Assembly: GCA_051362555.1 (NCBI GenBank)
Contig: CM120644.1
Location: 7,510,954 to 7,574,953 of the forward strand
Direction: 5' to 3'
DNA: 64,000 nt
From: Lingula anatina
Lineage: Eukaryota > Animalia > Brachiopoda
The translations under genes and the position numbers were made by a program. How positions within the stretch are numbered: the stretch's first letter is position 1; each line of letters begins with the position of its first letter. The notes under the pieces are model-generated. The model was not told the DNA's origin, ran no database searches, and saw nothing but the letters and a program-made list of their open reading frames with translations. This document shows, one piece after another, positions 828 through 61,600 of the stretch.

Positions 828-3800
828 GTTTGACAGGTAGCCTATATACATGTATTAACAATAAGATCATAAAAGATTTAAACATTATGTGATGTCAGCA
901 AGACAACTGCCAAATGTAGCTCATGTGCAAATAGTTTCTCTTCAAAAGAAGAAAGGTTGTCAAATTCCATCACTGTTAGCAAATACACTTACCTGATAAG
1001 ATGTAATAAAATTCTTTGCTGTTTTGTCAAATCTAGGACCTAAATCGCGTTAGCATAAACTGAAACAATTACCAATCTAGATAGAATAAAGATGTTTTAG
1101 GAAAACAATACTGTTTTCTTAGTGCAATTCGACGTCAGAAAAAGGGGGGTTCATTTGTGTTGTTTATAGGGTATAAGAAAAAATGGAAATCTGGATCGAA
1201 TGAAGACGTTTAAATTTAGATGTTTATTAGGTTTGTCCTCAGTGGTAGTTCACACCAAACAATAATGAGATATTTCAATGTTTCATTTCTAGATGAAAGA
1301 AAAAAAGGAAATTTCCCGTTTTCGGATCGAAGAAAAAAAGGAGTAAATGATTTTTTTTCATACAGTGCGAAAGTATAAAACACAACATTTATTATAGACA
1401 CCGACCTTCTCTGTGAATGGTGTCTGTATAAAATTTGTAAAATATCTACAAATCGGAATAAGAAAAATAGGCGATTAATAGAATTTTTATTTGTGTTCAT
1501 ATTTTCATTAAATGGGGAGAAATTCAATCTTAGGTGACAGAAGAGAATACATGTAGTTACTACTGTAGGTGCTAAGTGATAACCATGTTGTCGAACACTG
1601 TATCCATAGAAGAGGGTTATAGGCCTACAGATCAGTCCTCCAACACTGGTCCTTAAGTAGGAAGCAACGGAGATAATGATGTGATTTTTTCTTCAGTCAA
1701 CAGTTAATATTGAGTTTTTACCTCCAGTACTAAGTATGGAAAAGAAAGCAACGGAGAGCTTTTACATGTATATACACGTATATGTATAAAGCACAGCAGT
1801 ATGTCATTATCAAAGCTGCACAATTACACCGATAACGGCTACAAGTCGAAGAAATGTATAAATATTGATAAAAATGAAGATACTTATAAGGCTGAAAATC
1901 ACGGCGTAGTTACTGTTAAGTGACGAAGGAAGACTCAATTCGATACTTTTCGCACCAAGTCAAAAGTATCAAAAGAGACGACATTTTAAAAAGGGCGATA
2001 AGGCTGTTTTCTCGCTGTTAAAATGACATCAAAGCTGCGACTCATTTCTATCGTTTACGTTCGTCACACCTTGGAGCACGTTGTACAAATTGAGCGTTGT
2101 ACAAACAACACGGCGGTGGAATTCTCGGCCCGCGCACCTGCGTGGAACCAGAGAGGTGGGGAGAGAAATAGAAATGCACGGCTATTATCGCTAAGTTGTT
2201 AGCGTTCATTAACTTTGCACAAGATTCCCTCGTCTGTTCTGTGTATTTAGTGTTCCAGAGAGAGAGAGAGAGAGTGAGAGATGAACTTATAAATAACAAG
2301 AGTGGGTATCTCGTCAGAAAAAAGAGAAAGCTGTAAATCCCTATTCAATAACACATTTCACTAGTGGTGTAACCTGTTTTAGCAAATTTGTCAAGATTTG
2401 GAATTCTAAAGCATAGCTATACAATTAACAACAATGATTTTTTCAATAGTAATTGAAAAACTTAATTATATATAATGTTCTATTTAGAAATGCGTAGAAT
2501 ATAAAAATACGAAAATATTAAGCGAGATTCTTTCGGAAAGAGGAAAAAGGAGAGAAAGAAATAAGAAAAACCAAGATTTATGGTATTTTTTCTTCGTCGG
2601 TGCAGTTCAGTCGCTGGGAATAGCTCAGCAACACCTGGGGTAAACAGAAGTAAAGATAGCGGACTAATTGCCGGAATACACACACACACTAGCAATATCT
2701 GCGATTCCGGGATCGTGCAGGTGTTCGGAGACCAGGTCAAATTTCTTCTCAAATTCCCCCAAATCTCAGCAAGCCCAAACAACTCAATGCACCGTGAATC
2801 ATTAATTAAACACGCACTGATTTGACCCCCTTTTCACACCGATGAATCCGTGTCCTTTGTCTTATGTCTTATATATTTCCTATTTTTTTATTTGATTGAA
2901 CTTGTTTATCCAGTTGTTAATATAGTGGATAAATGAAGGTACCTGTGTGTGTGTGTTGTATTGCTAAATTAATTTTATTCGCAATTTACAAAAGCTGAAA
3001 TGTCCTTAAGATGTTGGACAGAAGAAGAAGAGGAAGAGAGAAAGAGAGAGAGAGAGAGAGATGCCCTGTATGACCAAATCCCAAAAACAGCCGTGTTAAT
3101 ATTTTATCATAAAAATGTTTGACACAGACCATTCAATATCTTCATTTAACCAGTCACTTACATAGACACTTCCCAATCTTTCCACCCATCGCTAACATAA
3201 TCGAATGACGTAATCTTCCTATTCGGTAATCTAGCTTGCGGTTATTCGGAAATTGAACAAAATAATCGGTTATCTTCACAACATAATGGACCAGTGATCA
3301 ACGTAGTTTGCAACAACAACAATGTCGCAACCCAAACTCAACCCACGCAGCGTCGTTGTTTGACACACCGCCGCTCCAAGCCGCGGGACGCTGTTTACGT
3401 CGCTAATAACTTAACGTGATTAACACTACCGTGTTGGTAGACAATGACGTAACGTGTGCTATCTGCCCTCGCTGACTCTTGATGACACAGAGATTTAGTG
3501 CAAAAATTTTAACGTACGCTATGAAGGGATGCCGAATAACTTGAACTACATTGAGATCATAAGTGAAAAAATACATATTTGCAGGACAAGCAAATAATTT
3601 TTAATGAAAACAGAAACTCCTTTTTGTTGTTTTAAAGCATAAATCATTTGTTTAATTTATGGAATTAGCAAATAATGATCGTCATGTGCCCTTTGTGACC
3701 GCAACATCCCAAGATCAAAATTCTTGATACGGGGGAATAAAAACATAGATATAAAAATATCTGTAGAATCAAAACGACCAGTACGCCACGCGTTCTTGTT

Positions 3801-42327: not shown

Positions 42328-42552
42328 TTAATCATGAACTCCATCATCCAAGTTCATTTCAAAATGGCCACCAAAACTTTCTGTGTATTTCACTTCTCCG
42401 TTCTCGATGTACCAAGAAGTGGCACTGATGGCGTCTTCTCTCTGTGTTATTATCATCGTTGTGTCATAGGTCGTAGTGACGTTACCATGGATATCCAGAG
42501 GGCTACCATCCAGTGATAACACAGTAAACCTGGCGTAGCTGCTTGCATGAAC
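42328..42552 (-). CDS. MAP3K14: Terminal exon of the NIK-like gene (conserved C-terminal domain)
   Basis: VHASSYARFTVLSLDGSPLDI...SWYIENGEVKY resembles the NIK C-terminus as recalled (FSLVTKDGQPV...WRVKHGQLE); acceptor CTCTCCAG at 42553. Confidence 0.8.
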   Translation of the reverse strand, partial: VHASSYARFTVLSLDGSPLDIHGNVTTTYDTTMIITQREDAISATSWYIENGEVKYTESFGGHFEMNLDDGVHD

Positions 42553-42805: not shown

Positions 42806-45800
42806 ACCTCTATCCAATAAAGCTAGGCTAATATAAGGTGTTATAAAAATTTTATCTTGGTGGAAAAATATATATACCAGGAATAAAAACAAGGCAGCAA
42901 AGCTGTCAAATGTACAGACAAAAAGCAGGAAATAACAAAATAGGCTACTGTCAATTCTGATGCAAAAGTACATTATGTTAAACTGCAAATTCAACATCAA
43001 ATTTTAATTATGCTCAACAGGTAATACCAATGTAAGTAAAATGTGTAACAAGCATAAGGCTTCAGGCCCATGGGAGTTCAAGTTCAAACTTCCAGAAACA
43101 GAAGTCAATTAGAACTGCTTTTCCAACTCGGGCTGCATTTTAGTCCTGTATTTCTTTTTTGAAAGTTTGGCAATCATAAGTAACATGGTTTTCCCATAAT
43201 GGTCATCATGGCAGCAGCACCCAAAATTGTGTTTTCTTCTATTCTGATGCAATATTACATAATGGTTAACAGCATAATGACAATCAATTTTTAATAATAA
43301 AATATACGTATCATGGATTTTCAGAAAATGTGACTAGCATGGGTCTTCAAGCCTGTGGAACTTCAAAGTCACACCTTGAAAATGCCAATATGTGAAAAAT
43401 TAAATTTTCACAAAAAACTGTTTAACTGGCAGATTGCATTGCCCACTGAAGCTATATTTTAGTCCCATGTTTCTTTCCTGTAAGTTTGAGAACAGTAAGT
43501 GACATGGTTTTTCTTAAATGGTCATCATGGGAGCGGTGCCCAAAATAGCTTTATTTTCAAATTTTGATGCAATATTACATAATGTTTCACAGCATAATGA
43601 ACATCAATTTTTTAATAATAAAATATTAGTATTATGGATTTCAGAAAATGTGACTAGCAAAGGTCTTCAGGCCCATGGAACTTCAAAGTCACAACTTGAA
43701 AATGCCAAAATGTAAACAAGACAGCACTGTTCTGAAATGTTTTTTTTTTCCATTTTTAACAATTTTTAACATAAAACAAAATTAACAGTTTACTGCCATT
43801 TTTATATGATCAACCAAAAAAATTGATGAGATGGGAAAAATATCAATAGGGCAGTGTTAAATGTCCAATTTCTTCCATTCGGAGATTCTGAACATAGTGA
43901 ATGATTGAATCTGACAAACTGCAATGATACGAGTTTATTTCCATTTTTGAAACTTTATTTCACAATACATGATAACAAGTTTACCATCATTTTTACATAA
44001 TCAACTAACAATGTTGTAAAGATGCAGGAAATGTCAAACAAACACTTTTACGAATCTTTATGGTTAAATAATGAGACTGTTAACATGCCTAAGAATTGAA
44101 TCTGAGGAAGTGTCAATAAAACAGCATAACTTATAAAATAATGGCCCGATTATGCTGATTTTTGAACTTGACCTGCGTTTTAGTAAGACTGATTACTCTT
44201 GTGAGTTTCATGACAACAGGTCTATCGGTTTTCCTTGAAATGTGTTAACAGTGTTGCATATATGCTGAAAAGTGAAAAAACAGCATAACTACTAAAATAG
44301 TGGCCTGATCATGCCGATTTTTGAACTTGATCTGCGTTTTAGTAAGATTGATTACTCCTGTGAGTTTCATGACAACAGGCCTATCGGTTTTCCTTGAAAT
44401 GGGTTAACAGTGTTGCATATATGCTAAAAAGTGAAAAAAACAGCATAAATTCTACAATAATGGCCCGATCATGCTGATTTTTGAACTTGACCTGCGTTCT
44501 ATGAATATTAGTCAGCTCTGTAAGTATAAAGCCAAAAAGTAAAATTGTCTTCCACTTATGGTGTTAACGCTGAAAGTGCACGGCAACGGCGACATGATCG
44601 GCGACGACAGACGCAGGTGATGGCAATATGTACAGACACATATGTGTCTGTACATAAAAATTAGAATCACTGGTTGGTCACCAAATATTTGAAAACATGC
44701 TGAAGTAACACCCTAGTTAGGAGAACACTTGTTGCACTGAACATCACAACTAACAAATTTCCACACGAATGAGTGAATATTCTCACCCTCCCATTGGTAG
44801 TGAATAGCCAAATTCTGGTGCATCAAATAATAGAAATTTTCTATGTAATTTATGGCAATCCAGCCTTGTGATCTGAACCTGACTTTTCCATTAAGAAACT
44901 GACCCTGATGAGCCTTCCTTGTGAAAGACCTCCAGATTGCATCAAAACACTGTATAAGTTTTAATTCCAATATTTGATTCACCACTATTCCTTTCAGTTC
45001 CTCATGATATTACCTTTGTGCTGATCTGTTTTATTACTTCTGACCATTCCCTCTGGTGACCGCCATTGCGTATTCTGATCTCTGCCAGCAGAGTCCTCTC
45101 CTCAGACAGGAATTTGATCTTGAAACCTGAAAAAAAAGATATTCAAATACTGAATGGAAAAAACATTATGTTCGTGATGCTTAGGCCATACATCAAAACT
45201 TTTAACCATTTCACTTATCCCAACATCTTCCAGAAATACCATAATTAGTTACTATTAAAAATATGATATCTGACAGACTTTTTTTTTCTCAAGTCACTAC
45301 TCATTCCACAACAGATATTTTTAGAAAACTATTATGGATCAATTTATTTGAATGTATGCAAATGCTGACGATGGAGGGATGAATTAGATGACTACTAGAA
45401 GTCTTGGAAGAAGAAATCTTGGCCAAACTGGAAATCCGAGGCTCAGGATAGGAAACAATGGAAAAAGCATGCTGAGGCCTTTGTCCAACAGTGGAACACT
45501 ATAGGCTCTAAATGATGATGATGATGATGATGAAATGCTGAACAAAATATCACTTGCTTATTCTCAAAGTGTGTAAATTATACATAAATGTACCACAGGG
45601 AATCCATTCACTGAAGTATCAAACTGACAGAAATCCATCATCTCAATAAGCATAACTACTAATAATGAATTATCATGTCACTGGCATACCAGACATACAC
45701 GTATCATCATTTTTTCATAGTGACATATAATACTACGTTTTTGAAGTGCATCAAAGCAATTTTTCCACGACCTTTTGGTTTTTGAAAAGTAAATGTAATT

Positions 45801-48800
45801 ATGCTCACTGTCATGCGAAGTTTGTTTTTTGAACTTCTGCTGCAGATGCTGCAAGCTGGCCATTTCATCTGGGCCCAGGATCATATTGGCAGAGGCTCCC
45901 CCAACACTTGTGTCTGTGTAGCTACTCTCTGCGCTTAGGTCATAGGATGCATCTTCAGTGTGAGGCTAAAGTGAAGCAACTTTGAATTAATAGATGTTTA
46001 AAACCTACTAGATACTTTTATTGAGCAAACAAAAAATTTACTCTATTAAGCAGAATTACTTTATGTCATCATGACCCAAATGCAATATCGCCTACTCCAA
46101 TTAGAAGCTTTCTTGCATGATCTCCTACTTAAAAGTTAAAATGACAACTTATTAAGTTTAAGAGCTACAATGGCAAAAATTAAGTACATAAGTTCTGCAT
46201 TACCAACCAATTCCAACACTGGTATATATTGATATACAAACTCATCCACATGCTTTTAATAGCCAATTTGATTGCCCCGTCACAACCTACCACTGCGCCC
46301 TCTATTTTGTCAAACACTGAGAGATGGAGCATGCTGGACTCTGGGGACTCTGTGCCGGACTGAGACATGTGGTCCACTTGGTACTTGGTCAGAGTCTCTG
46401 AAATAAGACCAACACCACTGGTCAGTTAGTCTGTGCTTGCAGGGGGTTCAAACTCATCTCCCCTATTTGAAATCTATAGCATTCTCTCAAAACTTCAGAT
46501 AAATCAACTGCTAAAACTGAATGCTTTAAATAAGACTGCATTGTAGGCAGGGAAATTTAAGAACATCAGTGTGATATAATTTCAATATCAAGACAACTTC
46601 ATATTTCACCTGGCATCTTTAAGTCTGCATATGACACATCTTAAGGGGAACAAGACTGCACAGGCATGGATAAAACAGCATTAACATTTTTTTTTTTGAA
46701 AATACAATGCACCTGGACAAAACAGGAAAAAACTTACCCTCCAGTAATCTTTCCAATTCTTTATCACTTTCCTCTTGACTCAACTTGGAGCTCTGTCTGG
46801 ACACATCGTGACCACTAAGTGACCGGTACCTCGACAACTCTGTTGCTGAGGAAGACATGTGACTGGGTGGTGTCCCATACACGCCAGTGCTGCTACTTCC
46901 ACTGCGCAGCCTCTCACTGGAGCTGGAGTGCCCCAAAATGGGAGTGACAGGTTGACTCTTTGGACTTGCCCATCCAGGGGTGTTGGATCTTGAAAAAGGA
47001 CTTGATCGTCCCATAGAATGGGCACTAGATGGTGTTGAGGTGGCCCGTGAGGCAGGGCCTACATGTGTGGTCCTTGTGGATAGGGCTCTTGTGTTGAACA
47101 CGTTTCCAGGTCTTACTGGACTTAAAAACCCCCAGGGGCTTCCTCTAGAGGGTGTGGCAGATCTTATTCCAGTTGGTGTAAAGCAGCTGCCACCCAATGC
47201 TGTGGAAGAACCTGTGAATGTCCCTGTTGTCTGCTGGGGATATGGGGATGACCCTTTCTTTGCCAGGGGCTGCTGAAGTCCTTGCTGTGGTATATCTGTC
47301 ATTTCCTGCTGGCCCTGGATCTCATGAGCACCCAGTCGAGCTGGGCTGGATTCCCTTCTTCCAGCTGGTTTATTAACCCCCTCAGAAGAACCTGGGGCAG
47401 ATGATGATCTTGTTCTTTTGTCATCAGAGAAACCCAATTCTGATTGGCTATTGGTCACATTGGGAATATTCAAATGTAAGTGTCTGGGTGACTCTTGGGA
47501 TTTGGACTCGCAGCTCATGTTGCTTTTATCCTGCAATGTTGTACTAGTTGAGTTAGGTAACTCTGCTACTACAAGGGGTATCAAGGGTAGAGAAGAAGGT
47601 GCTGCTCCCTGCTGGCCATTGCCATGGAGATCCTGTTGATTTTCATCAGAGGGATTTGGCTGAGTGGCATCTGGGTTGGGCATCTGGTATGAAATCTTCT
47701 CAGTCATGGTGGAAACACTGGATGACATACTTTTCTCAAAAACACTCAGCACGGGAAGTTGAGGTGACAGAGACTTTCTATTCATCAAGGGCGATACATC
47801 ATTTGCTGACATCTGTACTCTCTCAAATTCCAAAGGAATACTGTCAACTTCTCCAGAGGGAGCCATTTTCTGCACTGTCACATCAGGAGGTGGACAAGAT
47901 GTCTGTGACATATCTTCAACTTTCTGACCACCAGATGTAGATGTTGCAGGTTGATCAAACCCAGGGACCTTTTCTCCTTGTGCTGAAACACCTAGGTCTG
48001 TAGGCTCCCTCTGCCTTTCTGCCTCTCCCAGTGGTGCCACAATGTCCCCTTCATCAACAGGCCCAGGACCATACAGCTCATCACTTTTGATGCCTCCCAG
48101 CTCTTCATCTATTGGTAACAGAGCCTGGAAGATACTGGAGCTCATTGGACTCTGCAGCTGGGAGACATTCTCTCCAAGTGCTGGTAAATATCTGCTGTTA
48201 TTGTTGGAGTTGTTGTTGTCTTGTCCAGTGCTAAGGGCCAAGGACATTGGTTGTCTAGGTAACTGACCACTGGGCTGAGCAACTGGTTGATAGGTTTTCT
48301 CATCAGACCCACAACCGGTCACTTCGGGGGAGTGATGACCATGGGGATGGTTTTGACCTCTGACAAGATGGTTTTGCTGTTGACCAGGCACAGACTGGCC
48401 CTGTGGTGTCCAAGTGCCCTGTCCAGTAAGTCCTGTACCTTGTTGGTCATCATCCACAATGCTGCCTTGTGATTTAGAGAACATGCTGCTTTCATCTTGG
48501 TTCTCGCTAGAAAGTGCACCACTTGGGTTTTGAATAGATAACTGGGACTTGAAGCCCTCCTCAGCCTTTGACAGGGTCAGATCTTCCAGAAAAGCTGGCA
48601 CAAAACTAGCAGGTTGTTGTTGGTGCGACTCATCATTTTCACTGGAAATCTTCTCCTCATCTTCAGTAGGTGACTTTCTTCTGACCTTTTCCTTGGTTTC
48701 AGATTCTTCAGTATCCTGCTTCTCGGGTATGCTGTTGCTGCTTTCCTCATCTTCATGTCCTCTGTTTGGTTCTTCTGGATCTGTTAAGGCATGTCCTTGT

Positions 48801-51800
48801 TCTGACAGTGGATACTGTCCCAACTGTGGACTCCCTGTTTGTGCTGGATGTGACAGAGACGATTGCGTTAGATGAGCCTCACCACCAGATTGTGTTCCAG
48901 ATGTGAAATGAGCTACAGAGAGGGTGTGCTGGAACAATGCCTCCAGGTCGGGAACTGTGGTGGTTTGGTCAATTTCCTGGTGCTGTTGTTGTTGTTGTTG
49001 TTGCTGTTGTTGTTGTTGCTGCTGCAATCCTCTTTGGTCTATATTCAGCTGGAGACTCTGGAGCTGTTGCTGTTGCTGCTGTTCTTGTTGCTGCTCTTGT
49101 GATCCATGTAATACAGGATACACTTGGTAAACCTCAGGCTGTGATGGACCTGAAAATACCAAATCATATGCTTTAAATAAAAAGTGGACATTTTTTTGGC
49201 CATAAATTTAGCAGCTCTTCCTCACTAAAATCAAACAAACCAGGTAAATTACACATCCCTAAAGTTTTATCTTGTAACATTCCTAGTTTTTGAATTCAAC
49301 CCTTGATAAAAAGTGGACATTTTTTTTCTGGCAAAAAATTATGCAATTGTTCCTCTCTAAAATCAATCAAAACTCTTAAATTAAATAACTTTTATCTTAT
49401 AACATTCCTAGTTTTTAAATTAAATATGCTGACTGGTGACCAATTAATTTCTTTTTCGACTTAGCAAAAACAATGAAATGTTGAGACGTTTAAAATATGG
49501 TGACCGAAAGAGGGCAGCACAGTCAAAAGACAAACCTCTCCAGGTCAACAACTCCTTCTCTGCCAACAGAGAGAATGCTGGGTGTTTCAGGAGATTCTTG
49601 GCTGAGGGACGTTTCTCAGAGTTGGTCTGCCATCCTTGTAAAATCAAATCGTGAATTTTGGGGTGCAGATTGCTAGGTATGTCTTCAGTTGGGGGAGAGT
49701 TCATTTTGATCTGAAAATGTTACAAAATAATTCACACATTTCATTTTTCAATGGGATTTTAGCTTGCCAGTAACTCTATTCTTCAGTTAAATCAATCACA
49801 GCAAGAACATTCTTCAGTTAAATCAATCACAGCAGGAACAATGAGAAAATTGTATAAATAAATGAGGCAAGATCTTGATGAGAGAATGATGTCAAACAAG
49901 ATGCAATGGGAAGGCATGTCAAGAAAAATCAGAAAAATCAATGAAAAACTCCACTTAGTTTGGGCTGACACAAAATCAAATAGCTCAGACTTTAAATACA
50001 ATGCGACAGATATAGTCCTTTGTGAAATGTAAAAAAACAGTGGTTGTTAAAAATAGAACAAGTTATATAAACTTACAATGAAGTGTAATAGTCCTGCGCC
50101 AGGATACCTACGCACCCATGGATGGTGTCCCGTCAACATGTGAATGAACACGCAAATGGCCGCCCAGACATCAGAGCGGCAGTCATGACCCTCGCTGGCA
50201 GCTTTTTCTGGGCTCCACTGGGTTTGGGCTCCTATTGGCCTGTGCCCAGGAGACAACACCCTCTGGTGGCGTCCCAGACGCCTGGACAAACCAAAGTCAG
50301 TGAGGGCAATGTGGAGGCTCTCTGCCTTCAGTAAGATGTTGTCAGCTAGAGAGTCAATAATATTTGGTGTTATTGATGATCAGATAAAATCTTTCTGAAT
50401 CAATATTCTTGTGTGTTTGTCATCATCTATTCATCATGGACGCAAAACAAAAAAGTAAATTGGTGATCACAGTTTTTAGCCATCTCTTATGTTAGCTATT
50501 TGAAGGAATTGTTATTTTACTTAGCTGAAAAATTTCAAGCATTATTCTAAATCAATTTAAAGACAAGGAGGTTGTAAGTACAACTTTGGGAAATCACTGA
50601 TACATTTTTGTATAAAATAACTTCATTATATCACTTTGCTATTGCAAGTTAAAAATGACAACCCACTTTTTTGTTGTGGTCAAAATGACTGATAAAGCTC
50701 AGAATTTTATGCAGTGACTTGGAAATGACCCCTTTTTTTCAGGTGAGGCACAAAATGGCCTTTTTTTCAGTAGAGCAACAGTCAGTGATGAGAGAAGATT
50801 TAGAAAAACAAACAAAACAGAAAATACCAGCACTGATTTCTGGATAAATCTGGAAGCCTATCATCTCGAAAGAGTTAATGTGAAATTGCCCTCTATACCT
50901 TTCAAGTCTTCGTGGATTATTCTCTTCTCGGCAAAGTAGACCAGTACTTCCAGGACCTGTTGTAAGTACAGCAGTGCCGCCCAGGGACTGAGACACTCCT
51001 GGCTGGTGATGAACTCTGTCAGTGAGCCACCTGGTGGTAAAGACAATGAACTATTGGTTTGTTCTTATATATTAAACTGAAAACAAAAATCCATTGTATA
51101 GCTGGTGGAAAAATGGAAGGCAAATCACAATACAAAACTTTGAATTACATAGAGCATGAAAACCTTTTGGCTTGTGATAAACTGTTGGGGTGATATCTGG
51201 AAAGAGTAACATCACAAAGAATCATCACAAAAATCTTTAGAATTTTTAAAATTAATTTAAATATTTTTTATTCTGGTACAAGCACATTTTTCACAATGAC
51301 AGTGACCTAATTATACTTATTGAAACTAATGCACCATTGTGTAAACAATTTTTCTCTTCCCTTCTCTTTCACTTTTTTTTTGTCAGCTCACCTTCCATTA
51401 GCTGCATAAAGATGTAAACTTTACGCCCAGTTCTGATTGCCCCATACAGCTCGACAACATTCGGGTGCTGAAGGTCTGCCCAGATAATCAGTTCTTCCTC
51501 ATTGTAATTCAACAGGTCCACCTAGAATGTAATAGAAAACATCATGATAAACAAGAACTATACAAATTATTTGATAAATATTCTGTTTCTGGGATTAATT
51601 CACTGTCACCAGTTTTACCTAGAAACAACCGCCACTGACATTATTCTCCCTAATCTTTCCTTTTCACTTCAAAAGCAGGACATTTTGCCTAAGGCAGGAA
51701 ATCACCAACTGCAATAGTGCTGTGGACTTACCTTCTTCACACAGAAGCTGAATTCGTTGTTGAAGTCCTGGGCAATATGGCACCTCCCTGCTACACCGCT

Positions 51801-54750
51801 GCCCAAATACGTACACTTATACCACTGTGAGTCCTTCTCGTAGCGGTCGTTGATAACCTTCAGGTCCTAGAAAGATCCCAACAGAACCTCTATGAGAGAG
51901 CTTTGTAAAGTAAATGGTGGTAATTTTCAGGCCTTATCATAGGCTCTATTCCCATAGATTTTAGATCGATCTATCCCCGCGGGGAGTCTCACTAGATTAC
52001 TTTCAGATAATCCGACTTAAATGTCCGTCCCGCCTACTACAAGCTCTAAGGGGATAATTAACTTTCGTGTCCGCCCGGCTGACAGCTATTTAGCGTGAAC
52101 CCCCAGGGAGTTAGGTCGATCTAAAGTAGGTCGATCTAATCTATGGAAATGGGGTGATAATTACAAAATGCGGGGAATGCAGTGAACCAAACACTTTTAA
52201 AGTGAAGCACTTCAAAACACCACAAGTACAAATATATTTCTTTCTGATCTTTTACTCTAATACACAATGTTGTATGTTGACATACAACACCTTTCAATCA
52301 TCTTGTTATTACTTGATAATCACTGCAACGTCAATTCACCTAAATGTAAATATATAAACATAATCTGTAACAGTGTACCAACTAGTATTGCCTTTGTTGA
52401 AATTATTTTGCAATTCTACTGGAACCTTGTTACAGATCACAAACATACTACTTTGTTACAAACCAAACACAAGCTATTTTGTTACAGATCACACACATAC
52501 TACCATGTTTCAGATCAAACATTTTATAAAGGTGTTACAGACATTTTTCATCCCTAGAGAATTGCACCAACCTCCTTTATTATAATCCCCTCCTCCTTTC
52601 TGCCAGGTGGCATCATCTTCCCAGCAGCCACATGGTCCCGAACCTTTGTCCAATACTTGGCCAAATCTTTCAGATTTCGCGGGGTTCCATATGCCACTTC
52701 CCCGACACCAGGGAGATGTCTGCTGGCTGCCCTCACTGAGGTAATTCTGTTTGGCTCGAACACTTGTGTCTTCAGCTGCACGGGTAGACTTGCGATGCTG
52801 TAAGGTTGAGTGTTCACGGGCGGGAGGGCATTATCATTATATGGGAGGTCAAAAGTCAAGTGATCGGGGGATGGGCTGAGTGGCACCGCTGACTCGGGTT
52901 GTGGAGACAGCAGAGCCCTCTGCTGTTTCTGAGATGCCATGTCCTTGCTCAAGTAAACACGCAGCTCCTCCCTGGTGGCGCTCTGCAGATCTTCCATGTA
53001 GCTTCGCAGTGCAGTCTGGTTGTCTGTGTCGTCTTCCCCCATTGGTTCAAATTCAACATGGCTGCCAGGCTGGTTGTAATTAGGCAAAACTCCTCCACTG
53101 GGAACATCAGCCTGGTCCAAACGAAAACCAGAATCATCATCGTTACCTCGCAGGAAGCTGGAGAGGGCCTCTTGGTTGTGCAAGGACTCAGTCTCCTCTG
53201 GAAAATTCAAAGATGGTGGGTTCTGTGTCAGATGAATGGCCTCAACGCGTAAGGCTGCAGCTTCTTGGTAAATTCTGTCTAGAGTTTCCTTCACATCTGC
53301 TGGGGCGTTCTCAGGAGCATGTGCTGGTGCATGTGCAGGAGCAGCAGGTACGACGACATCCTCGGTAAAACCGGCTTTTCCAGTCTTGCCAGAAGTGTAC
53401 CTGGCAAATGAAAGCGGTGTTTTGCCTCCACCATCCGTCTCTGTCCTTCCCCCTAGAGGTGTGGGTGTGCCAGTTCCAGGCAAATTTCTTCCACCTGCTA
53501 CAGAAACTGAAGCTGAGACAGCCAGTCCCAAACCCTGCAACCCCCTGGGACTGAGGGGTGGGAGACCCTGGGGGACAGATTGTGGAGGGCCCATGGAAGT
53601 TGGTGGTGGGGGGTGCAATGCAAAGTTTTCACTGATGGGCTCCATCTTTGGCTGATATCTTTTTGTGCTTCCTGTGCGACGGGGCTGTCCTTTCCCTGGT
53701 GGAGGTTGACCTCTGACCTCCTGACCCCCATCTGCTTGTTGAAGTCTGTTAAAGCTTGGAGGGTTGTCTTCAGCATTCTGATTAGCTGACCCAGGAAGAG
53801 AAAGGACATCAGGTATATCCTCGCCCAATGACAGGAGACTTCTCATACTGTCGCTCTGCAGGAATTCCAGGCTTCCGAGAGAAAGACGACGGTGCTGACG
53901 ACCGAAGTTCTTCTTAATGGTGTTCCAAACAATATCCTGTCTTTTAAACATACGATTGCGTGAATCGTACAGTTTTCTTCTGATCCTTCCACACAGCTCT
54001 GAAAGACAAGGCAGTATATATATATATTTGACCAACCCAGACAACAATGCTATTTTCATTCTCAACTCTCCGACTGATACAAAATAAAAACTTCAGAATA
54101 AGATTTTAGCCAGCAATAATATAAAATCAACTATTGTTTGAGGAACAAATCATTGATCGACTTCTCACAGCTTTAAAACTTGTGGGAATTGTTTTACCCA
54201 AGTAAATCTTCCCAACACTTTTAAAGACAGAAAACTCTATACTCACCCATAGAGCAACTACAAGTGCCATTCAAGTCGTCCTCAACACATCTGTTAATGT
54301 GATACATGAACAAGTTAAACAGGGCCTCACAACTTCTGCACACCCTTCTTGTGTCAACACAGCGACCAACATGGCGGCATAAAAAGGAGAGGTGGTCGCA
54401 AATTTCACAATCAGTTTGGTTCCCAGCAGCAGGTCCTGAAATATCAAGATCACACTTTTGATAAAAATTTTGAAAGAGCAGATGAAAATGGCTGAAAATG
54501 TTAGAATGAACTTTTGAAACAAATGTGTCTCCTGAAAAGAAGGACAAGGTCACACTGTTCTGATACAATCCCATCCTTTTTTCAAATATAGAACTAATGT
54601 TATGCTCACAAGTTTGAAACACACAGACATCTAGATAGTTTCCATAACCCTGTAAGTGATGCTGTTTTTGGCCGTGTTATAGGGGTGGAAAAATCAGTGG
54701 CTTGGGAGCCGCAAAGAGCAGAAAATATCAACGTAATAATCACAAAGTAA

Positions 54751-54789
<39 letters not shown>

Positions 54790-55578
54790 AACATGTCCGT
54801 CTTTACCTGTGGTCAACCAAAACTGCAGACACAAGTTTAATTCTCCAAAAGCCTGCTGCTGTATGTGGTGACTGTCCAACTGCTCCTGTGTCCCCAGGAC
54901 ATCTTCTCCGCCTGGATCAATATTCACCTTCAGCTAAAAATAATAAAACAGATACAATGTATACATGTGTTGTGTTTAGCCTTAGGTGGAGAAAATTGAC
55001 TACTTTGGGACAAAAATTTTAAAATAGCTATGATTTAGTCTCATATTATGAGAGAAGCATCAGGTTGAATGCCCAAAGGTTCACCAGCACTCAGGGAACT
55101 GTGGGCATTCAGCCTGATTCTTAGGTTTATGGGTGTAGGTGGACCTGAAAACTGCTAATGGTTTTAAACAACATATGAAAGTATTGGTCAACTAAAACCT
55201 TCAGTATGAACAAAACAAACAGCAATCAATGTGCTTCAGTTAATGGTACTTTTGACAAGCAAAAGAAACCTGATAAAAAGTCATAAGAAATAAAAAATCA
55301 ACTAACTGCTAACAAACAATCAGTAATTATCACACTACAAAATGTAACCTTACCCATCCAATGGCAGTGGTTATGTCCATATCCTTCAGTTCACCATGTT
55401 GCCTGCCGCCTTTCTTTCGTGGCCACTTGTAATCTTTCTTCACGAGTCCATTACGAAGACTGTCCCTGTTATCGTGGGGTCTGCTGTGGTCTCCTCCTCC
55501 TTCACCATCAAACCCATCCTCCTAAAATCAAATAAATGTGTTTCAGGGAAAATCACATTAACTGTAACTGGAGAAAAA

Positions 55579-55633
<55 letters not shown>

Positions 55634-58600
55634 AATTAAATATATATTCTTGAGAATCAAAAATCCGTCATAACCTATGATTATGCAAACAAATACACAT
55701 TACCAAGAGCAGAACTAGAGGATCAGAGAGGCGATACCGCCTCCGAATATTGTACCACCAGCTGGAGCAAGCGCATTCGTATAGACCCCCACATACACAA
55801 AATAAGGGGTGCAGCCACCAGTCTTGTGCTTGACAAGCTGTAAAAATGCAATCAACAAGAATTTTCAAAATATGCAAAAAATATATATAACTAAAAATGG
55901 TGCAATCAAAGTTAAGTTCATTGTAAGGTAGGTCAAAGGTCAATTTCAAGGTCACAGTAAATTGCCAGTATATGACTTCCTATCCAACTTCAATAGTAAC
56001 TATGGACCTATCTCTGCCAGTTTTGGAGATAAAAGGGAAGCAAAATTTGCAAAGTTCAGTTCATGGTGAAAAGTAGGTCAAAGGTCAATTTCAAGGTCAC
56101 AGTAAGATTGCCAGTATATGACTTCCTATTCAACTTCAATAGTAACTATGGACCTATCTCTGCCAGTTTTGGAGATAAAAGGGAAGCAAAATTTGCAAAG
56201 TTCAGTTCATGGTGAAAAGTAGGTCAAAGGTCAATTTCAAGGTCACATTTAGATTGCCAGTATATGACTTCCTATTCAACTTCAATAGTAACTATGGACC
56301 TATCTCTGCCAGTTTTGGAGATAAAAGGGAAGCAAAATTTGCAAAGTTCAGTTCATGGTGAAAAGAAGGTCAAAGGTCAATTTCAAGGTCACAGTAAAAT
56401 TGCCAGTATATGACTTCCTATGCAAGTTCAATAGTAACTATGGACCTATCTCTGCCAGTTTTGGAGATAAAAGGGAAGCAAATTTTGCAAAGTTCAGTTC
56501 AAGGTGAAAAGTAGGTCAAAGGTCAATTTCAAGGTCACAGTAAAATTGCCATTATATGACTTCCTATTCAAGTTCAATAGTAACTATGGACCTATCTCTG
56601 CCAGTTTTGGAGATAAAAGGGAAGCAAAATTTGCAAAGTTCAGTTCATGGTGATAAGTAGGTCAAAGGTCAATTTCAAGGTCACAGTAAGATTGCCAGTA
56701 TATGACTTCCTATTCAACTTCAATAGTAACTATGGACCTATCTCTGCCAGTTTTGGAGATAAAAGGGAAGCAAAATTTGCAAAGTTCAGTTCATGGTGAA
56801 AAGTAGGTCAAAGGTCAATTTCAAGGTCACATTTAGATTGCCAGTATATGACTTCCTATTCAACTTCAATAGTAACTATGGACCTATCTCTGCCAGTTTT
56901 GGAGATAAAAGGGAAGCAAAATTTGCAAAGTTCAGTTCATGGTGAAAAGAAGGTCAAAGGTCAATTTCAAGGTCACAGTAAAATTGCCAGTATATGACTT
57001 CCTATGCAAGTTCAATAGTAACTATGGACCTATCTCTGCCAGTTTTGGAGATAAAAGGGAAGCAAATTTTGCAAAGTTCAGTTCAAGGTGAAAAGTAGGT
57101 CAAAGGTCAATTTCAAGGTCACAGTAAAATTGCCAGTATATGACTTCCTATTCAAGTTCAATAGTAACTATGGACCTATCTCTGCCAGTTTTGGAGATAA
57201 AAGGGAAGCAAAATTTGCAAAGTTCAGTTCATGGTGAAAAGTAGGTCAAAGGTCAATGTCAAGGTCACAGTAAGATTGCCAGTATATGACTTCCTATTCA
57301 ACTTCAATAGTAACTATGGACCTATCTCTGCCAGTTTTGGAGATATAAGGGACTAAATGTTATAATTTTGGAGTTACCATAATGTGCCATAAATTGCCTA
57401 CAGAAAAAATTAATTAAAATAAAGAAAAGGTCATTTTGGTCAAAGTTCTTGAAATGGGAGGTTCTCTGAAGTTGCAGAAGTTTAAATTTGATAAAATAAT
57501 GTCATTTTTGACCACAAGTTGTCTGCTTTGCCAAGCATTATGTTTTATTTTTCCGGAGTTCAAAATTTATTATCCATTACCGTACTGCACATTTTTACAG
57601 AAGCCGACTGGTGCCATATGTTGAAAAAAAAAATTATCTCGAAATTTCGAGATAGCATTTTTTTTGTTCAAATTTCAAAATACTATCTCGAAATTTCGAG
57701 ATAAATTTTTTTGCTCAAATATCAAAATGCTATCTCGAAATTTCGAGATAATTTTTTTTTTGTTCAAATTTCAAAATGCTATCTCGAAATTTCGAGATAA
57801 AAATTTTTTTTGTTCAAATTTCAAAATAGTATCTCGAAATTTCGAGATAATTTTTTTTTCTACATATGGCACCAGTCGGCTTCCGTACATTTTCCTTTCA
57901 CCACCAATATGTACTTTCTGATACAGCGTAACTCGAAAACCGTATGGAATACAAAAAAAACCGAGACCACCTCCAGTGTTGGGCTTTACATGCTCTACAA
58001 AATGCAAAAAAGAATGGGTCTCTAGCATTAACGGTTCCCGAATTAGAGACAGTTTTCAGTTTCGGTATCTTATGGCCGCTACTCCTGTGAAAATGCACCG
58101 ATTGACCCCAAATTCACGGAGATGAAAGATGACCTGAAGGGTAACACTTTCCAATAATATTATTGGTTAAGTCTGTGTGGCGTCTGAATAACAGGGCAAA
58201 AAAATTTTTTTTCGTAAAAAATTTCATTTTTTTGAAAATTTTGACCCATTTGACCTTGAAGTAAAGGTCAAAGGTCAAATCCGAGGGTATATTTGAAATC
58301 TACACATATGACTTTTGGAAAGCCGTCTATAGAAATTTTTCCCGTAACTCCTTCTGTAGGGTAGATAATTAGCATTTAATTTTGCCATTTTTAGACAAGG
58401 GTGCATTGCAATGAGTGCCACACCCAGACCCCAATACCGACAAAGCCCAAATTTTACGTGGAACGAGTTGAGATTATAGGTGACCTAAATCCATGAGATG
58501 GGTACGGGGGCCCTTACCGTCTAGGAGGAGAAGCGGTAACGGTAACATGGCGGCGGAGCCGGTGGAACGGACCGGACGGGACCGAAACCATGTGTACCGC

Positions 58601-61600
58601 CAGCGCTAACGCTGGTGGTAAATTTTTTTTGTTCAAATTTCAAAATAGTATCTCGAAATTTCGAGATAATTTTTTTTTCTACATATGGCACCAGTGGGCT
58701 TCCGTACATTTTCCTTTCACCACCAATATGTACTTTTTGATACAGCGTAACTCGAAAACCGTATGGAATACAAAAAAACCGAGACCACCTCCAGTGTTGG
58801 GCTTTACATGCTCTACAAAATGCAAAAAAGAATGGGTCTCTAGCATTAACGGTTCCCGAATTAGAGACAGTTTTCAGTTTCGGTATCTTATGGCCGCTAC
58901 TCCTGTGAAAATGCACCGATTGACCCCAAATTCACGGAGATGAAAGATGACCTGAAGGGTAACACTTTCCAATAATATTATTGGTTAAGTCTGTGTGGTG
59001 TCTGAATAACAGGGCAAAAAATTTTTTTTTCGTAAAAAATTTCATTTTTTTGAAAATTTTGGCCCATTTGACCTTGAAGTAAAGGTCAAAGGTCAAATCC
59101 GAGGGTATATTTGAAATCTACACATATGACTTTTGGAAAGCCGTCTGTAGAAAATTTTCCCGTAACTCCTTCCGTAGGGTAGATAATTAGCATTTAATTT
59201 TGCCATTTTTGGACAAGGGTGCATTGCAATGAGTGCCACACCCAGACCCCAATACCGACAAAGCCCAAATTTTACGTGGAACGAGTTGAGATTATAGGTG
59301 ACCTAAATCCATGAGATGGGTATGGGGGGCCTTACCGTCTAGGAGGAGAAGCGGTAACGGTAGCCGTCCGGCGGAGCCGGCGGAGCCGGCGGAACGATCC
59401 GGACGAGACCGAAACCATGTGTACCGCCAGCGCTAACGCTGGTGGTACAATTACTATTCAGGTTAAATGGGAAATTGGGCAATTCTTTGAAACTTAAGAA
59501 GAAAGTCTTGAATCTGTTACATCCATTATTTTTGTTCCACTTTCCAAACATTTATGTTCATTTCTAAATAACCTAAAGACTAATTTCAAACTACTTTCCT
59601 GGATGCAAAATAAAATATTGGGTATGACAACTGAGATCTAAAACACGTCTGTTTCTTGATATTGCAAGTTGCATAAGATACTAACTGACCTCCTTTCCTT
59701 CACTGTTTAAGTCTCTTTGACCACCATCTTTTCCTTGGTCTTTTGAATTGTTCTAAAAAATATGAAAATTACAAAATAAACTTCTATACAATAAGGTTAA
59801 TAAATTTTGCATCTAAAAAATACTAATGGCAGAAACAAACGTCTTGAATAAACAGTCAAACCATAAATATATGCACCACATTTAATATTTGACTTGGTTA
59901 GTCAGAAAAATAAAACTTCATATGACCACACTTGCCCAATAAAGTACAATAAAGAAAAGCACTTCCTACTAATATATTAATAGTACTAACACTAACTTGC
60001 CAAAACAAAAACGGGTCCCCTTACCCCGGCAAGTAGGCCTATAAACTTAATATTTTCCTGAACTCACTGTTTTTCCAAATCCTCTGCTGAAATCCCCACC
60101 ACCACAGCCACCGCCAGTGGCACCAGTACCTTCACCATCACCACTGTCTTCAGGTGGACCACACCCCGTTTCATCTCCACGTCTGCGGTGGACCACCCTG
60201 AGACTGTTGAATGCATTTGTCCCTGAACCTTGGTCAAAACTAGGTGAATCTGGGAGAAAGCTTGAATTTGACTTCTGCTTATGGGGCTCAACACGTGACC
60301 CTCTGCCAGTGAGACTGTTAGGAGGTCCACCCTCCCTCCTGAGTCTGGGTTCTTCTTTCCTTTTCTTTTCTGTATTTTTCTTTCCCCTTCTTTTCTTCCT
60401 CTTGGCTTTTTTCATCTCTCTGGTTAAGTGGGCATGGCTGGTTTGATCAAAATTGGTCACAGAGGTCACTGAAATGATTTTACTTTGACCTTTGCCATGA
60501 CCTTTAATGTTGACCTTTGGTTTTCTTGTCTGTGCTGTTGGGTGTCTCTTCTTCTTTCCGTTTTTAGCGGCTCTGGGTTCTGTTGCAGAATTCTTGACGC
60601 TGTTGTCTGCCTCTGGCTGCTGACCATTGCCTTTCTTACATTTTCTTTTCTTCTTAGATTCACTCCCTCTAGATGTGGTTTCTCTTTTGATGTCTTTTCC
60701 ATTGCCACTGCTACATGGAGCCCTGTTGCTGCTGCTGCTGTTGTTGGCATCAGGTGAAGTGCTGTTCTTGGTCTCAATGATGCTCTTGTGGATGACATCA
60801 CTGTCATTCTGTGTGCCAGTAACTGGGAGGCACATACTGCCACCTGTTGCTGCAGAAAAGCATTAAATGAAAAATACAATTGGTAAAATTCAATGAATTT
60901 AAAGACTAACTTTAATATAAAGGTGTTTGAAAATAATTCTTGTGTTTGCCTTTTTGTTAGTTTATATTTTATTCAAAGTCATTAGAACTCTTTGTTTTTC
61001 AAAATTTAACAAAGTCTTAATCATCTTTTAGGAAAATGATGTTTGAAAATATTTATCAAGTCTTAAAATAATTTAATTTGAAATTACAGATATTTTCTAA
61101 TGAAAACCTTTGCAACCTCTAATTCTTCTTTTCACCAAAATAGCTTTAAATGTGAAAACATACTGAATCATAATATTTTCAACCAACTTAGCCTTTTCTT
61201 TAGCCAACTTAAACACTTAAAACCATAAATAAAGAAATAAAGTATCTTCTCACTAGAGATATTGTTGCCTTTTGGTAATTTCTGTTCTATATCCTTTGTT
61301 TTCTTCTGTGGAACATTAAAATTGAACTCTGGACAACTAGGTGCATCTGCAATAAAAAAACAAAACAATTCAATCACGCAGTAAAGACAGACCTCCAATA
61401 GTTTCAGCAATCTGGTTATAACTGCTGAACTTCACTAATATATATATATATATCTTAATATATATAAAACCTACCACAATCTGATGCAATCACTGAAATG
61501 CCAGAGCATCACTGAAAGGACAAAATGAATAACTCTCAAGTTAAGAAGTCCTTCGTTTTTTTGTTCAAAATTCACCATAAAAACTAAAAATATCAGTAAC

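What the first reader, a model, noticed from the sequence alone, without database searches (positions are those of the whole stretch)
53965..54531. TAZ-type zinc finger fused to a NIK/MAP3K14-like kinase
Seen: spliced sequence C..C.......H.G.C.......C..C..L..L..YH...C........C.C....C.RIRRKL. Established (recalled): CBP/p300 TAZ2 reads roughly SCQKMKRVVQHTKGCKRKTNGGCPICKQLIALCCYHAKHCQENKCPVPFCLNIKHKL, with the same H-x3-C, C-x2-C-x2-L-x2-L-x2-YH-x3-C and C-x2-I-x2-KL spacing. TAZ domains bind transactivation domains, and vertebrate NIK has none. Inference: an unusual architecture that could dock the kinase directly on transcription factors. The first Zn site looks degenerate.
Basis: partly seen in the sequence, partly recalled or inferred. 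Interest (0 to 1): 0.8.

Follow-up and report, generated by a model that had tools for sequence, protein, structure and literature searches.

The report
Lost zinc finger of ancestral NIK
An expressed invertebrate gene joins a CBP/p300-type (TAZ2-like) zinc-finger domain to a NIK-type inflammation kinase, and the same pairing occurs in molluscs, an annelid, an acorn worm, amphioxus, hagfish and lampreys but not in the sharks and bony fish examined, so it is likely an old regulatory part that jawed vertebrates lost.

Summary
Real, and not a quirk of this genome. Alone, the exon scores below Pfam's zf-TAZ cut-off (18.3 vs 25 bits). A profile of the same region from 28 related kinases hits only p300/CBP TAZ2 significantly (E 1.8e-10), and an AlphaFold model of the mussel copy matches TAZ2 best (Z 8.7); a lamprey model was inconclusive. 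The domain lies 101-428 residues before the kinase in molluscs, Owenia, Glandiceps, amphioxus, hagfish and lampreys. It is absent from 40 of 40 shark/bony-fish rows and from a tunicate. So jawless-vertebrate NIK has it, and loss in jawed vertebrates is the likeliest history. Zinc sites 2 and 3 are intact here and site 1 lacks its His. The core is near neutral, unlike strongly basic TAZ2, and an extra Trp/basic helix follows; this weakens the idea that it docks acidic activation domains. I favour a regulatory brake on NIK (inferred, untested). None of ten literature searches found the architecture described.

The parts
60068..60849 (-). candidate upstream coding exon, low complexity, with a Lys/Arg cluster
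   Evidence: open frame and splice-like ends; not checked with RNA
59690..59752 (-). coding exon joined to 55521 across a 4.2-kb repeat-filled intron
   Evidence: loose ends of 17 reads in 2 runs match it; frame open
55354..55521 (-). coding exon with the basic K/R-K-K-(x)-H-G segment conserved ahead of the domain in lophotrochozoans
   Evidence: junction reads; alignment
54807..54933 (-). exon carrying helix 1 of the TAZ2-like domain (54849-54808); site-1 His replaced by Thr
   Evidence: junction reads; alignment
54247..54435 (-). 189-base exon with the TAZ2-like core: residual site-1 C-x2-C, intact site 2 (HCCC), first three ligands of site 3
   Evidence: RNA; Pfam zf-TAZ 18.3 bits; family profile to TAZ2
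53898..53998 (-). last zinc ligand (53993), helix 4 and the extra Trp/basic helix 5 (53939-53898)
52572..53897 (-). rest of the 1427-base exon: long low-complexity linker and the conserved pre-kinase segment (52709-52578)
   Evidence: continuous RNA depth; alignment
49536..51866 (-). five exons of the NIK/COT-type kinase domain: Gly loop 51803, Lys 51746-51732, HxD 50914, DFG 50298, xPE 50206
   Evidence: Pfam Pkinase; best PDB hits NIK E 2.9e-11, then MAP3K8 8.1e-08; junction reads; coordinates
45809..49149 (-). three exons of long Ser/Gln-rich C-terminal region
   Evidence: junction reads
45014..45126 (-). exon starting the NIK-type C-terminal domain
   Evidence: acceptor shown by reads; donor inferred
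42328..42552 (-). inferred last exon completing the NIK-type C-terminal domain, stop at 42330-42328
   Evidence: splice signals and 11.4 bits to an iterated NIK C-terminal profile, shuffles up to 5.9; not checked with RNA

Best explanation
This expressed gene encodes a NIK/COT-family MAP3 kinase whose N-terminal region holds a TAZ2-like zinc-finger domain, likely the ancestral bilaterian form that jawed vertebrates lost, and the domain most likely acts as a protein-binding brake on the kinase. Shown: splicing into one open frame, kinase identity, conservation of the domain before the kinase from molluscs to lampreys, homology to p300/CBP TAZ2. Predicted: a four-helix TAZ core held by two intact zinc sites (a third remodelled) plus a fifth Trp/basic helix. 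Inferred: the domain binds a peptide of NIK itself or of a regulator, perhaps with helix 5 covering the groove that TAZ2 uses for activation domains, and so keeps NIK inactive or short-lived until a partner binds. In jawed vertebrates the short TRAF3-binding degron would have taken over that job.
For: Splicing. Kinase; NIK C-terminal domain in lamprey (35-39 bits) and Glandiceps (25 bits) versus shuffles up to 5.9. Domain: a 16-row lophotrochozoan seed profile finds held-out amphioxus (28.8, 12.3 bits), lamprey (21-23), hagfish (22.4) and Glandiceps (10.3), with shuffles up to 2.6 of 860; 61 of 67 profile-positive proteins have the kinase 101-428 residues downstream and the other 6 are short fragments. 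TAZ2: 15 of 15 PDB sequences at E<=3.5e-07 are p300/CBP TAZ2-containing; a lophotrochozoan-only profile gives 13 TAZ2 rows first, best E 5e-07; mussel model pLDDT 84.7, top 9 Foldseek rows TAZ2, VIA Z 8.7, rmsd 2.9, 83 aligned. Brake: TAZ2 itself autoinhibits the p300 acetyltransferase and is relieved by partner binding (PMC10475075, abstract). The core net charge is 0 here, median +1 in 28 rows, against about +13 counted by eye on the p300 stretch. A TRAF3-site-like motif (pattern recalled) occurs in 8 of 17 gnathostome/tunicate rows and 0 of 28 TAZ rows, and the jawed-vertebrate N-terminal profile finds nothing in TAZ-bearing rows except one basic cluster.
Against: No functional data on any member. 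The helix-5-in-groove hint is weak: it overlays the fused p53 part of only one TAZ2 chimera (5hpd), not of 3t92, 5hp0, 6fgs, 6fgn or 7xez. The lamprey model did not give a clear fold match (Foldseek E 1.7-3.4, rmsd 9-10; best TAZ2 Z 3.9 at rank 12). No Foldseek row reached E<=0.001, and Z under about 13 can be a common helical arrangement. Full HCCC sites 2 and 3 are kept in only 17 and 15 of 28 rows. The linker is long and variable, which does not favour a fixed contact with the kinase. The cyclostome-plus-gnathostome branch has only 84/73 support, deep nodes are open and MAP3K8 was not in the tree. The window's own N-terminus is incomplete in my model.
Confidence: 0.5

Rival explanations
1. 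One reading: the domain works like CBP/p300 TAZ2 and docks the kinase on acidic activation domains of transcription factors such as Rel/NF-kB, p53 or STAT, so NIK phosphorylates them directly.
For: Closest homologue and fold is TAZ2, whose solved complexes are with p53, STAT1, C/EBP, p63/p73 and NUT. One amphioxus copy keeps a basic core (+9) and the site-1 His. A Lys/Arg cluster lies in the candidate upstream exon.
Against: Core charge near neutral in most rows and 0 here. Site 1 is remodelled and an extra helix may cover the surface. A basic cluster was found in only 5 of 28 rows.
Confidence: 0.2
2. The functional element is helix 5, a calmodulin-binding helix placed after the TAZ core as in plant BTB-TAZ proteins, which would make ancestral NIK calcium-regulated.
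For: Trp followed by a basic amphipathic helix in 16 of 28 rows, including the window. Arabidopsis BT2 has TAZ followed by a calmodulin-binding domain with K333-W334-K335 (PMC8774732, passages).
Against: Resemblance by pattern only; no BT sequence was aligned. Lamprey and hagfish helix 5 is not basic, and pulmonate/sacoglossan gastropods lost the Trp.
Confidence: 0.12
3. The domain is a decaying or purely structural zinc-binding relic with no specific partner.
For: Two of the eight site-2/3 ligands vary in about 40% of rows; lost in jawed vertebrates and a tunicate; one oyster isoform record lacks the core.
Against: Eight Cys/His columns are 27-28 of 28 conserved across lophotrochozoans and deuterostomes while the flanks do not align; six read variants in the exon change two non-ligand residues only (partial variant list).
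Confidence: 0.1
4. The Cys/His spacing is convergent and the domain is not TAZ-derived.
For: No member passes Pfam's cut-off (best E 0.00014; 14 of 28 match weakly); lamprey fold search inconclusive; the atlas score for the window exon is 0.84, a lead only.
Against: Two profiles built without any CBP/p300 sequence pick TAZ2 out of 177,635 PDB sequences, far above the next unrelated row (E 1.8e-10 vs 0.29; 5e-07 vs 0.029); mussel fold match; amphioxus atlas hit 0.91 with 206 shared features.
Confidence: 0.05

Closest known systems
NIK / MAP3K14 of jawed vertebrates
   Same: Best PDB match of the kinase exon; pre-kinase E-G-[VI]-[IL] segment; C-terminal domain detectable in lamprey and hemichordate members and weakly here.
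   Different: About twice as long; carries a TAZ2-like domain that 40 of 40 shark/bony-fish rows lack; no TRAF3-site-like motif found; the activation-loop Thr position reads Ala.
COT / TPL2 / MAP3K8
   Same: Second-best kinase family (E 8.1e-08). bioRxiv 10.1101/2024.10.01.616093 (passages and section 13) places the COT/NIK split at the vertebrate genome duplications, so this gene may be pro-orthologous to both.
   Different: COT is short and lacks the NIK C-terminal domain (recalled); not placed in my tree.
TAZ2 (CH3) domain of CBP/p300, Pfam PF02135
   Same: H-x3-C...C-x2-C and H-x3-C...C-x4-C spacing, four-helix fold, profile and fold matches.
   Different: Site-1 H-x3-C missing here; core near neutral instead of strongly basic; extra Trp/basic helix; sits in a kinase, not an acetyltransferase; below the Pfam cut-off.
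Plant BTB-TAZ proteins (Arabidopsis BT2)
   Same: TAZ domain outside CBP/p300 followed by a Trp/Lys helix, there calmodulin-binding (PMC8774732, passages).
   Different: Cullin-3 adaptor with a BTB domain and no kinase; sequence similarity of the helix not tested.

Membership tests
TAZ zinc finger (PF02135) | Score above Pfam's gathering cut-off (25 bits) | tested here: not met
   18.3 bits for the exon; 14 of 28 homologous stretches match weakly, best E 0.00014. The full spliced window domain was not scanned.
TAZ zinc finger (PF02135) | Profile-level homology to solved TAZ domains | tested here: met
   E 1.8e-10 and 5e-07 to p300/CBP TAZ2; no isolated TAZ1 construct at E<=10.
TAZ zinc finger (PF02135) | Three HCCC zinc sites | tested here: not met
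   Sites 2 and 3 complete in the window; site 1 keeps C-x2-C but lacks H-x3-C.
TAZ zinc finger (PF02135) | Four-helix TAZ fold | tested here: met
   Mussel homologue model: top 9 Foldseek rows and top 3 wide VIA rows are TAZ2, Z up to 8.7. The window's own domain was not folded.
TAZ zinc finger (PF02135) | Four-helix TAZ fold in the vertebrate (lamprey) copy | tested here: inconclusive
   Top 3 Foldseek rows TAZ2 but E 1.7-3.4, rmsd 9-10; VIA Z 3.9.
TAZ zinc finger (PF02135) | Binds zinc and activation-domain peptides | not testable with these tools
   Needs experiment; the charge argues against the TAZ2 binding mode.
NIK/MAP3K14 (or NIK/COT pro-orthologue) | Kinase domain closest to NIK, catalytic motifs intact | tested here: met
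NIK/MAP3K14 (or NIK/COT pro-orthologue) | NIK C-terminal domain | tested here: inconclusive
   Window 11.4 bits after iteration, under my 14-bit inclusion line, shuffles up to 5.9, last exon inferred; clear in lamprey and Glandiceps.
NIK/MAP3K14 (or NIK/COT pro-orthologue) | N-terminal TRAF3-binding motif | tested here: inconclusive
   Not found in the modelled part or three upstream frames; the pattern is recalled, catches only 8 of 17 gnathostome/tunicate rows, and the gene's 5' end may lie outside the window.
NIK/MAP3K14 (or NIK/COT pro-orthologue) | Groups with NIK to the exclusion of MAP3K8 | not tested
   No MAP3K8 sequence was obtained; deep nodes open.
NIK/MAP3K14 (or NIK/COT pro-orthologue) | Activates IKK-alpha and p100 processing | not testable with these tools
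   Vertebrate function from PMC12883533 (passages).

The most novel reading that the evidence does not exclude
Ancestral bilaterian NIK was a TAZ-gated kinase: a second animal TAZ family, split off from CBP/p300 TAZ2, let transcription factors or a calcium sensor switch the kinase directly, and jawed vertebrates traded this module for the TRAF3/cIAP degron when receptor-driven non-canonical NF-kB signalling arose.
Probability: 0.25. Interest if true: 0.85.

Novelty: new variant of a known kind. Interest (0 to 1): 0.62.

Why it matters
Animal TAZ domains are usually thought of as CBP/p300 parts (recalled). This shows a second, conserved home in a signalling kinase, missed because every copy tested falls under the Pfam cut-off and most records are named 'uncharacterized'. 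It gives a domain-architecture marker linking invertebrate kinases to NIK, where a recent kinase-only phylogeny found unambiguous NIK/COT orthologues only in vertebrates. It also makes testable how NIK was controlled before the TRAF3/cIAP degron, with lamprey, amphioxus and oyster as ready models.

Tried and rejected
Acceptor at 54531: keeps the frame but has no RNA depth; rejected. Exon skipping of the 189-base core exon would keep the frame; no such joint was among the 4 listed (9 joints hidden). Single-exon phmmer against the PDB: no TAZ hit. Homologue search with the long linker exon: nothing among 7,995 candidates. The search meant to reach MAP3K8, cnidarian, echinoderm and tetrapod proteins covered only 2077-5000 residues and returned molluscs plus three distant kinases (P0237, P0239, P0240; kinase score 37-46 bits, no TAZ; left out). 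A weak phmmer hit in shark NIK vanished with the profile (-2.0 bits). A first ligand regex had a spacing error and matched nothing. Lamprey fold search inconclusive. A predicted complex of the domain with its own kinase was not run because the queue was full, so that contact is open. No whole genome is held for this window. No RNA holder was listed by index; raw-read runs of the same species label were used. Three look-ups of earlier scan findings gave nothing bearing on this gene.

Full report
Observation. The region is a spliced animal gene on the minus strand. Short RNA reads from 8 of the 9 runs offered under the same species label were laid on it. Junction 54247>53998 has 42 reads in 8 of 8 runs; 52572>51866 has 25 reads in 4 of 4; the four junctions within the kinase and those at 49536>49149, 46738>46397, 46291>45965 and 45809>45126 are also listed. 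The upstream acceptor is 54435, not 54531: 19 reads in 4 of 8 runs give a net skip of 371 bases, and depth is zero over 54480-54588 in 4 of 4 runs. No single read spans domain and kinase, but depth is continuous across the 1427-base exon and the joined frame is open for 1942 residues. The 5' end and the last exon (42552-42328) are inferred, not read-checked.

The kinase. The catalytic motifs are intact. One kinase exon matches NIK/MAP3K14 best among solved structures (11 top rows, E 2.9e-11), then MAP3K8 (8.1e-08). A full HMMER scan with that exon gave 60 proteins at E<=1e-10. Named relatives among these and later hits are from Mytilus, scallops, oysters, clams, a chiton, limpets, abalone, snails, Owenia, Glandiceps, Branchiostoma, Myxine, lampreys, Clavelina, sharks and bony fish. 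In a 33-row tree the window sits in a 100/99 clade with molluscs and Owenia, outside the molluscs. Hagfish and lamprey join jawed-vertebrate NIK with only 84/73 support, deep nodes are open, and no MAP3K8 was included. A profile of the jawed-vertebrate NIK C-terminal domain finds lamprey (35-39 bits) and Glandiceps (25 bits) against shuffles up to 5.9. On iteration it adds hagfish, one amphioxus and one unnamed row, and gives the window 11.4 bits, under my 14-bit line; most mollusc rows stay near background. A bioRxiv phylogeny (10.1101/2024.10.01.616093; passages and section 13 read, supplements closed) puts the COT/NIK split at the vertebrate genome duplications and finds unambiguous orthologues only in vertebrates, so 'NIK/COT pro-orthologue with NIK-like architecture' is the careful name.

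The domain is TAZ2-like. The 62-residue exon scores 18.3 bits on Pfam zf-TAZ, under the cut-off of 25, and finds no TAZ chain by single-sequence search. Pfam saw sub-threshold zf-TAZ in 3 of 19 and 1 of 21 full-length relatives. A seed profile from 16 lophotrochozoan rows found the held-out deuterostomes: amphioxus 28.8 and 12.3 bits, lamprey 21-23, hagfish 22.4, Glandiceps 10.3, with 860 shuffles reaching 2.6. With the 28-row profile, 67 of 197 stored proteins score 12 bits or more; 61 have the kinase 101-428 residues downstream and 6 are short fragments. All 40 jawed-vertebrate rows (sharks, sturgeon, bichir, teleosts; eight assigned by tree position, a few are partial; no tetrapod tested) score at most 3.3, within the shuffle range of 4.2. 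Also negative: three Clavelina rows, three rows of a further amphioxus kinase, five rows with little or no sequence before the kinase and one oyster isoform. Against the PDB the 28-row profile gives 15 p300/CBP TAZ2-containing sequences (E 1.8e-10 to 3.5e-07), then an unrelated row at 0.29; a 15-row lophotrochozoan-only profile gives 13 TAZ2 rows first, best 5e-07. The AlphaFold model of the mussel copy (pLDDT 84.7, five helices) has TAZ2 as its top 9 Foldseek rows, none at E<=0.001, as its top 3 of 48,161 chains by VIA (Z 8.0, 6.6, 6.5; next 4.8), and Z 8.7, rmsd 2.9 over 83 residues to CBP TAZ2. The lamprey model (pLDDT 83.3) was inconclusive. The atlas gave zf-TAZ clusters for both the window exon (0.84, lead only) and the amphioxus copy (0.91). 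The window's own full domain was not folded.

How it differs from TAZ2. Eight Cys/His columns are kept in 27-28 of 28 rows; the second ligand of site 2 and the third of site 3 in 17 of 28 each; the site-1 His column holds His in 11 of 28 and Thr here, while a Cys on helix 1 is kept in 22 of 28 and could be a substitute ligand (inference). The core's net charge is 0 here and median +1 (range -5 to +9), against about +13 that I counted by eye on the p300 stretch printed. A fifth helix with Trp and basic residues follows in 16 of 28 rows. In both models the structural alignment to the TAZ2-p53 fusion 5hpd runs on into residues numbered 3025-3026, which I take to be the fused p53 part; five other fusions did not show this, so it is only a hint that helix 5 fills a peptide site.

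Mechanism. Most likely the domain is a protein-binding brake in the N-terminal regulatory region (inferred). TAZ2 autoinhibits p300 and is released by partner binding (PMC10475075, abstract only). Vertebrate NIK is controlled by TRAF3-cIAP degradation (PMC12883533, passages), and a recalled TRAF3-site-like pattern occurs in 8 of 17 gnathostome/tunicate rows but 0 of 28 TAZ rows, so gain of the degron and loss of the domain appear complementary. The complex prediction that could have tested contact with the kinase did not run because the queue was full.

Novelty. Ten literature searches (listings and abstract starts, four papers opened in part) found no report of a TAZ domain in NIK; the phylogeny preprint has no occurrence of 'TAZ' in its main text. 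Precomputed Pfam columns of the 25 relatives show no zf-TAZ. The library lacks most subscription journals and I could not see InterPro, so an automatic label may exist. Verdict: a real, widespread and apparently undescribed domain architecture of a well-known kinase; new variant of a known kind; mechanism inferred; interest 0.62.

Noticed in passing
window 51941-52156: A roughly 216-base element with inverted ends in the intron before the kinase draws RNA depth of several hundred to over a thousand, with loose ends, in 4 of 4 runs: likely a high-copy miniature transposon.
   Followed up: no
window 55960-59450: A tandem repeat of about 120 bases and a second larger repeat fill most of the 4.2-kb intron 59689-55522.
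   Followed up: no
P0185 (Crassostrea virginica isoform X3 record): This record lacks the TAZ core from the end of helix 1, the same place as the window's 54807/54435 junction, suggesting a conserved intron and possibly a skipping isoform or a model error.
   Followed up: partly
P0024 (Myxine): The hagfish TAZ-bearing kinase starts M-A-V like many jawed-vertebrate NIK rows, resembling an IAP-binding N-terminus (recalled), so it may hold both old and new controls.
   Followed up: no
P0063 (Polypterus) and P0046: A second, divergent NIK-like kinase in bichir falls between jawless and jawed NIK in the tree; only partial records were seen, so whether it keeps the TAZ-like domain is open.
   Followed up: partly
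window 50232-50206: The activation-loop position that is Thr in human NIK reads Ala here.
   Followed up: no
P0078, P0141, P0077 (Branchiostoma): Amphioxus species hold at least three NIK-like kinase types: long with TAZ, short with TAZ and no C-terminal domain, and one without TAZ.
   Followed up: partly
window 44700-55560: Runs under one species label differ strongly from the window (up to several per cent in exons, one study most), pointing to high polymorphism or cryptic species.
   Followed up: no
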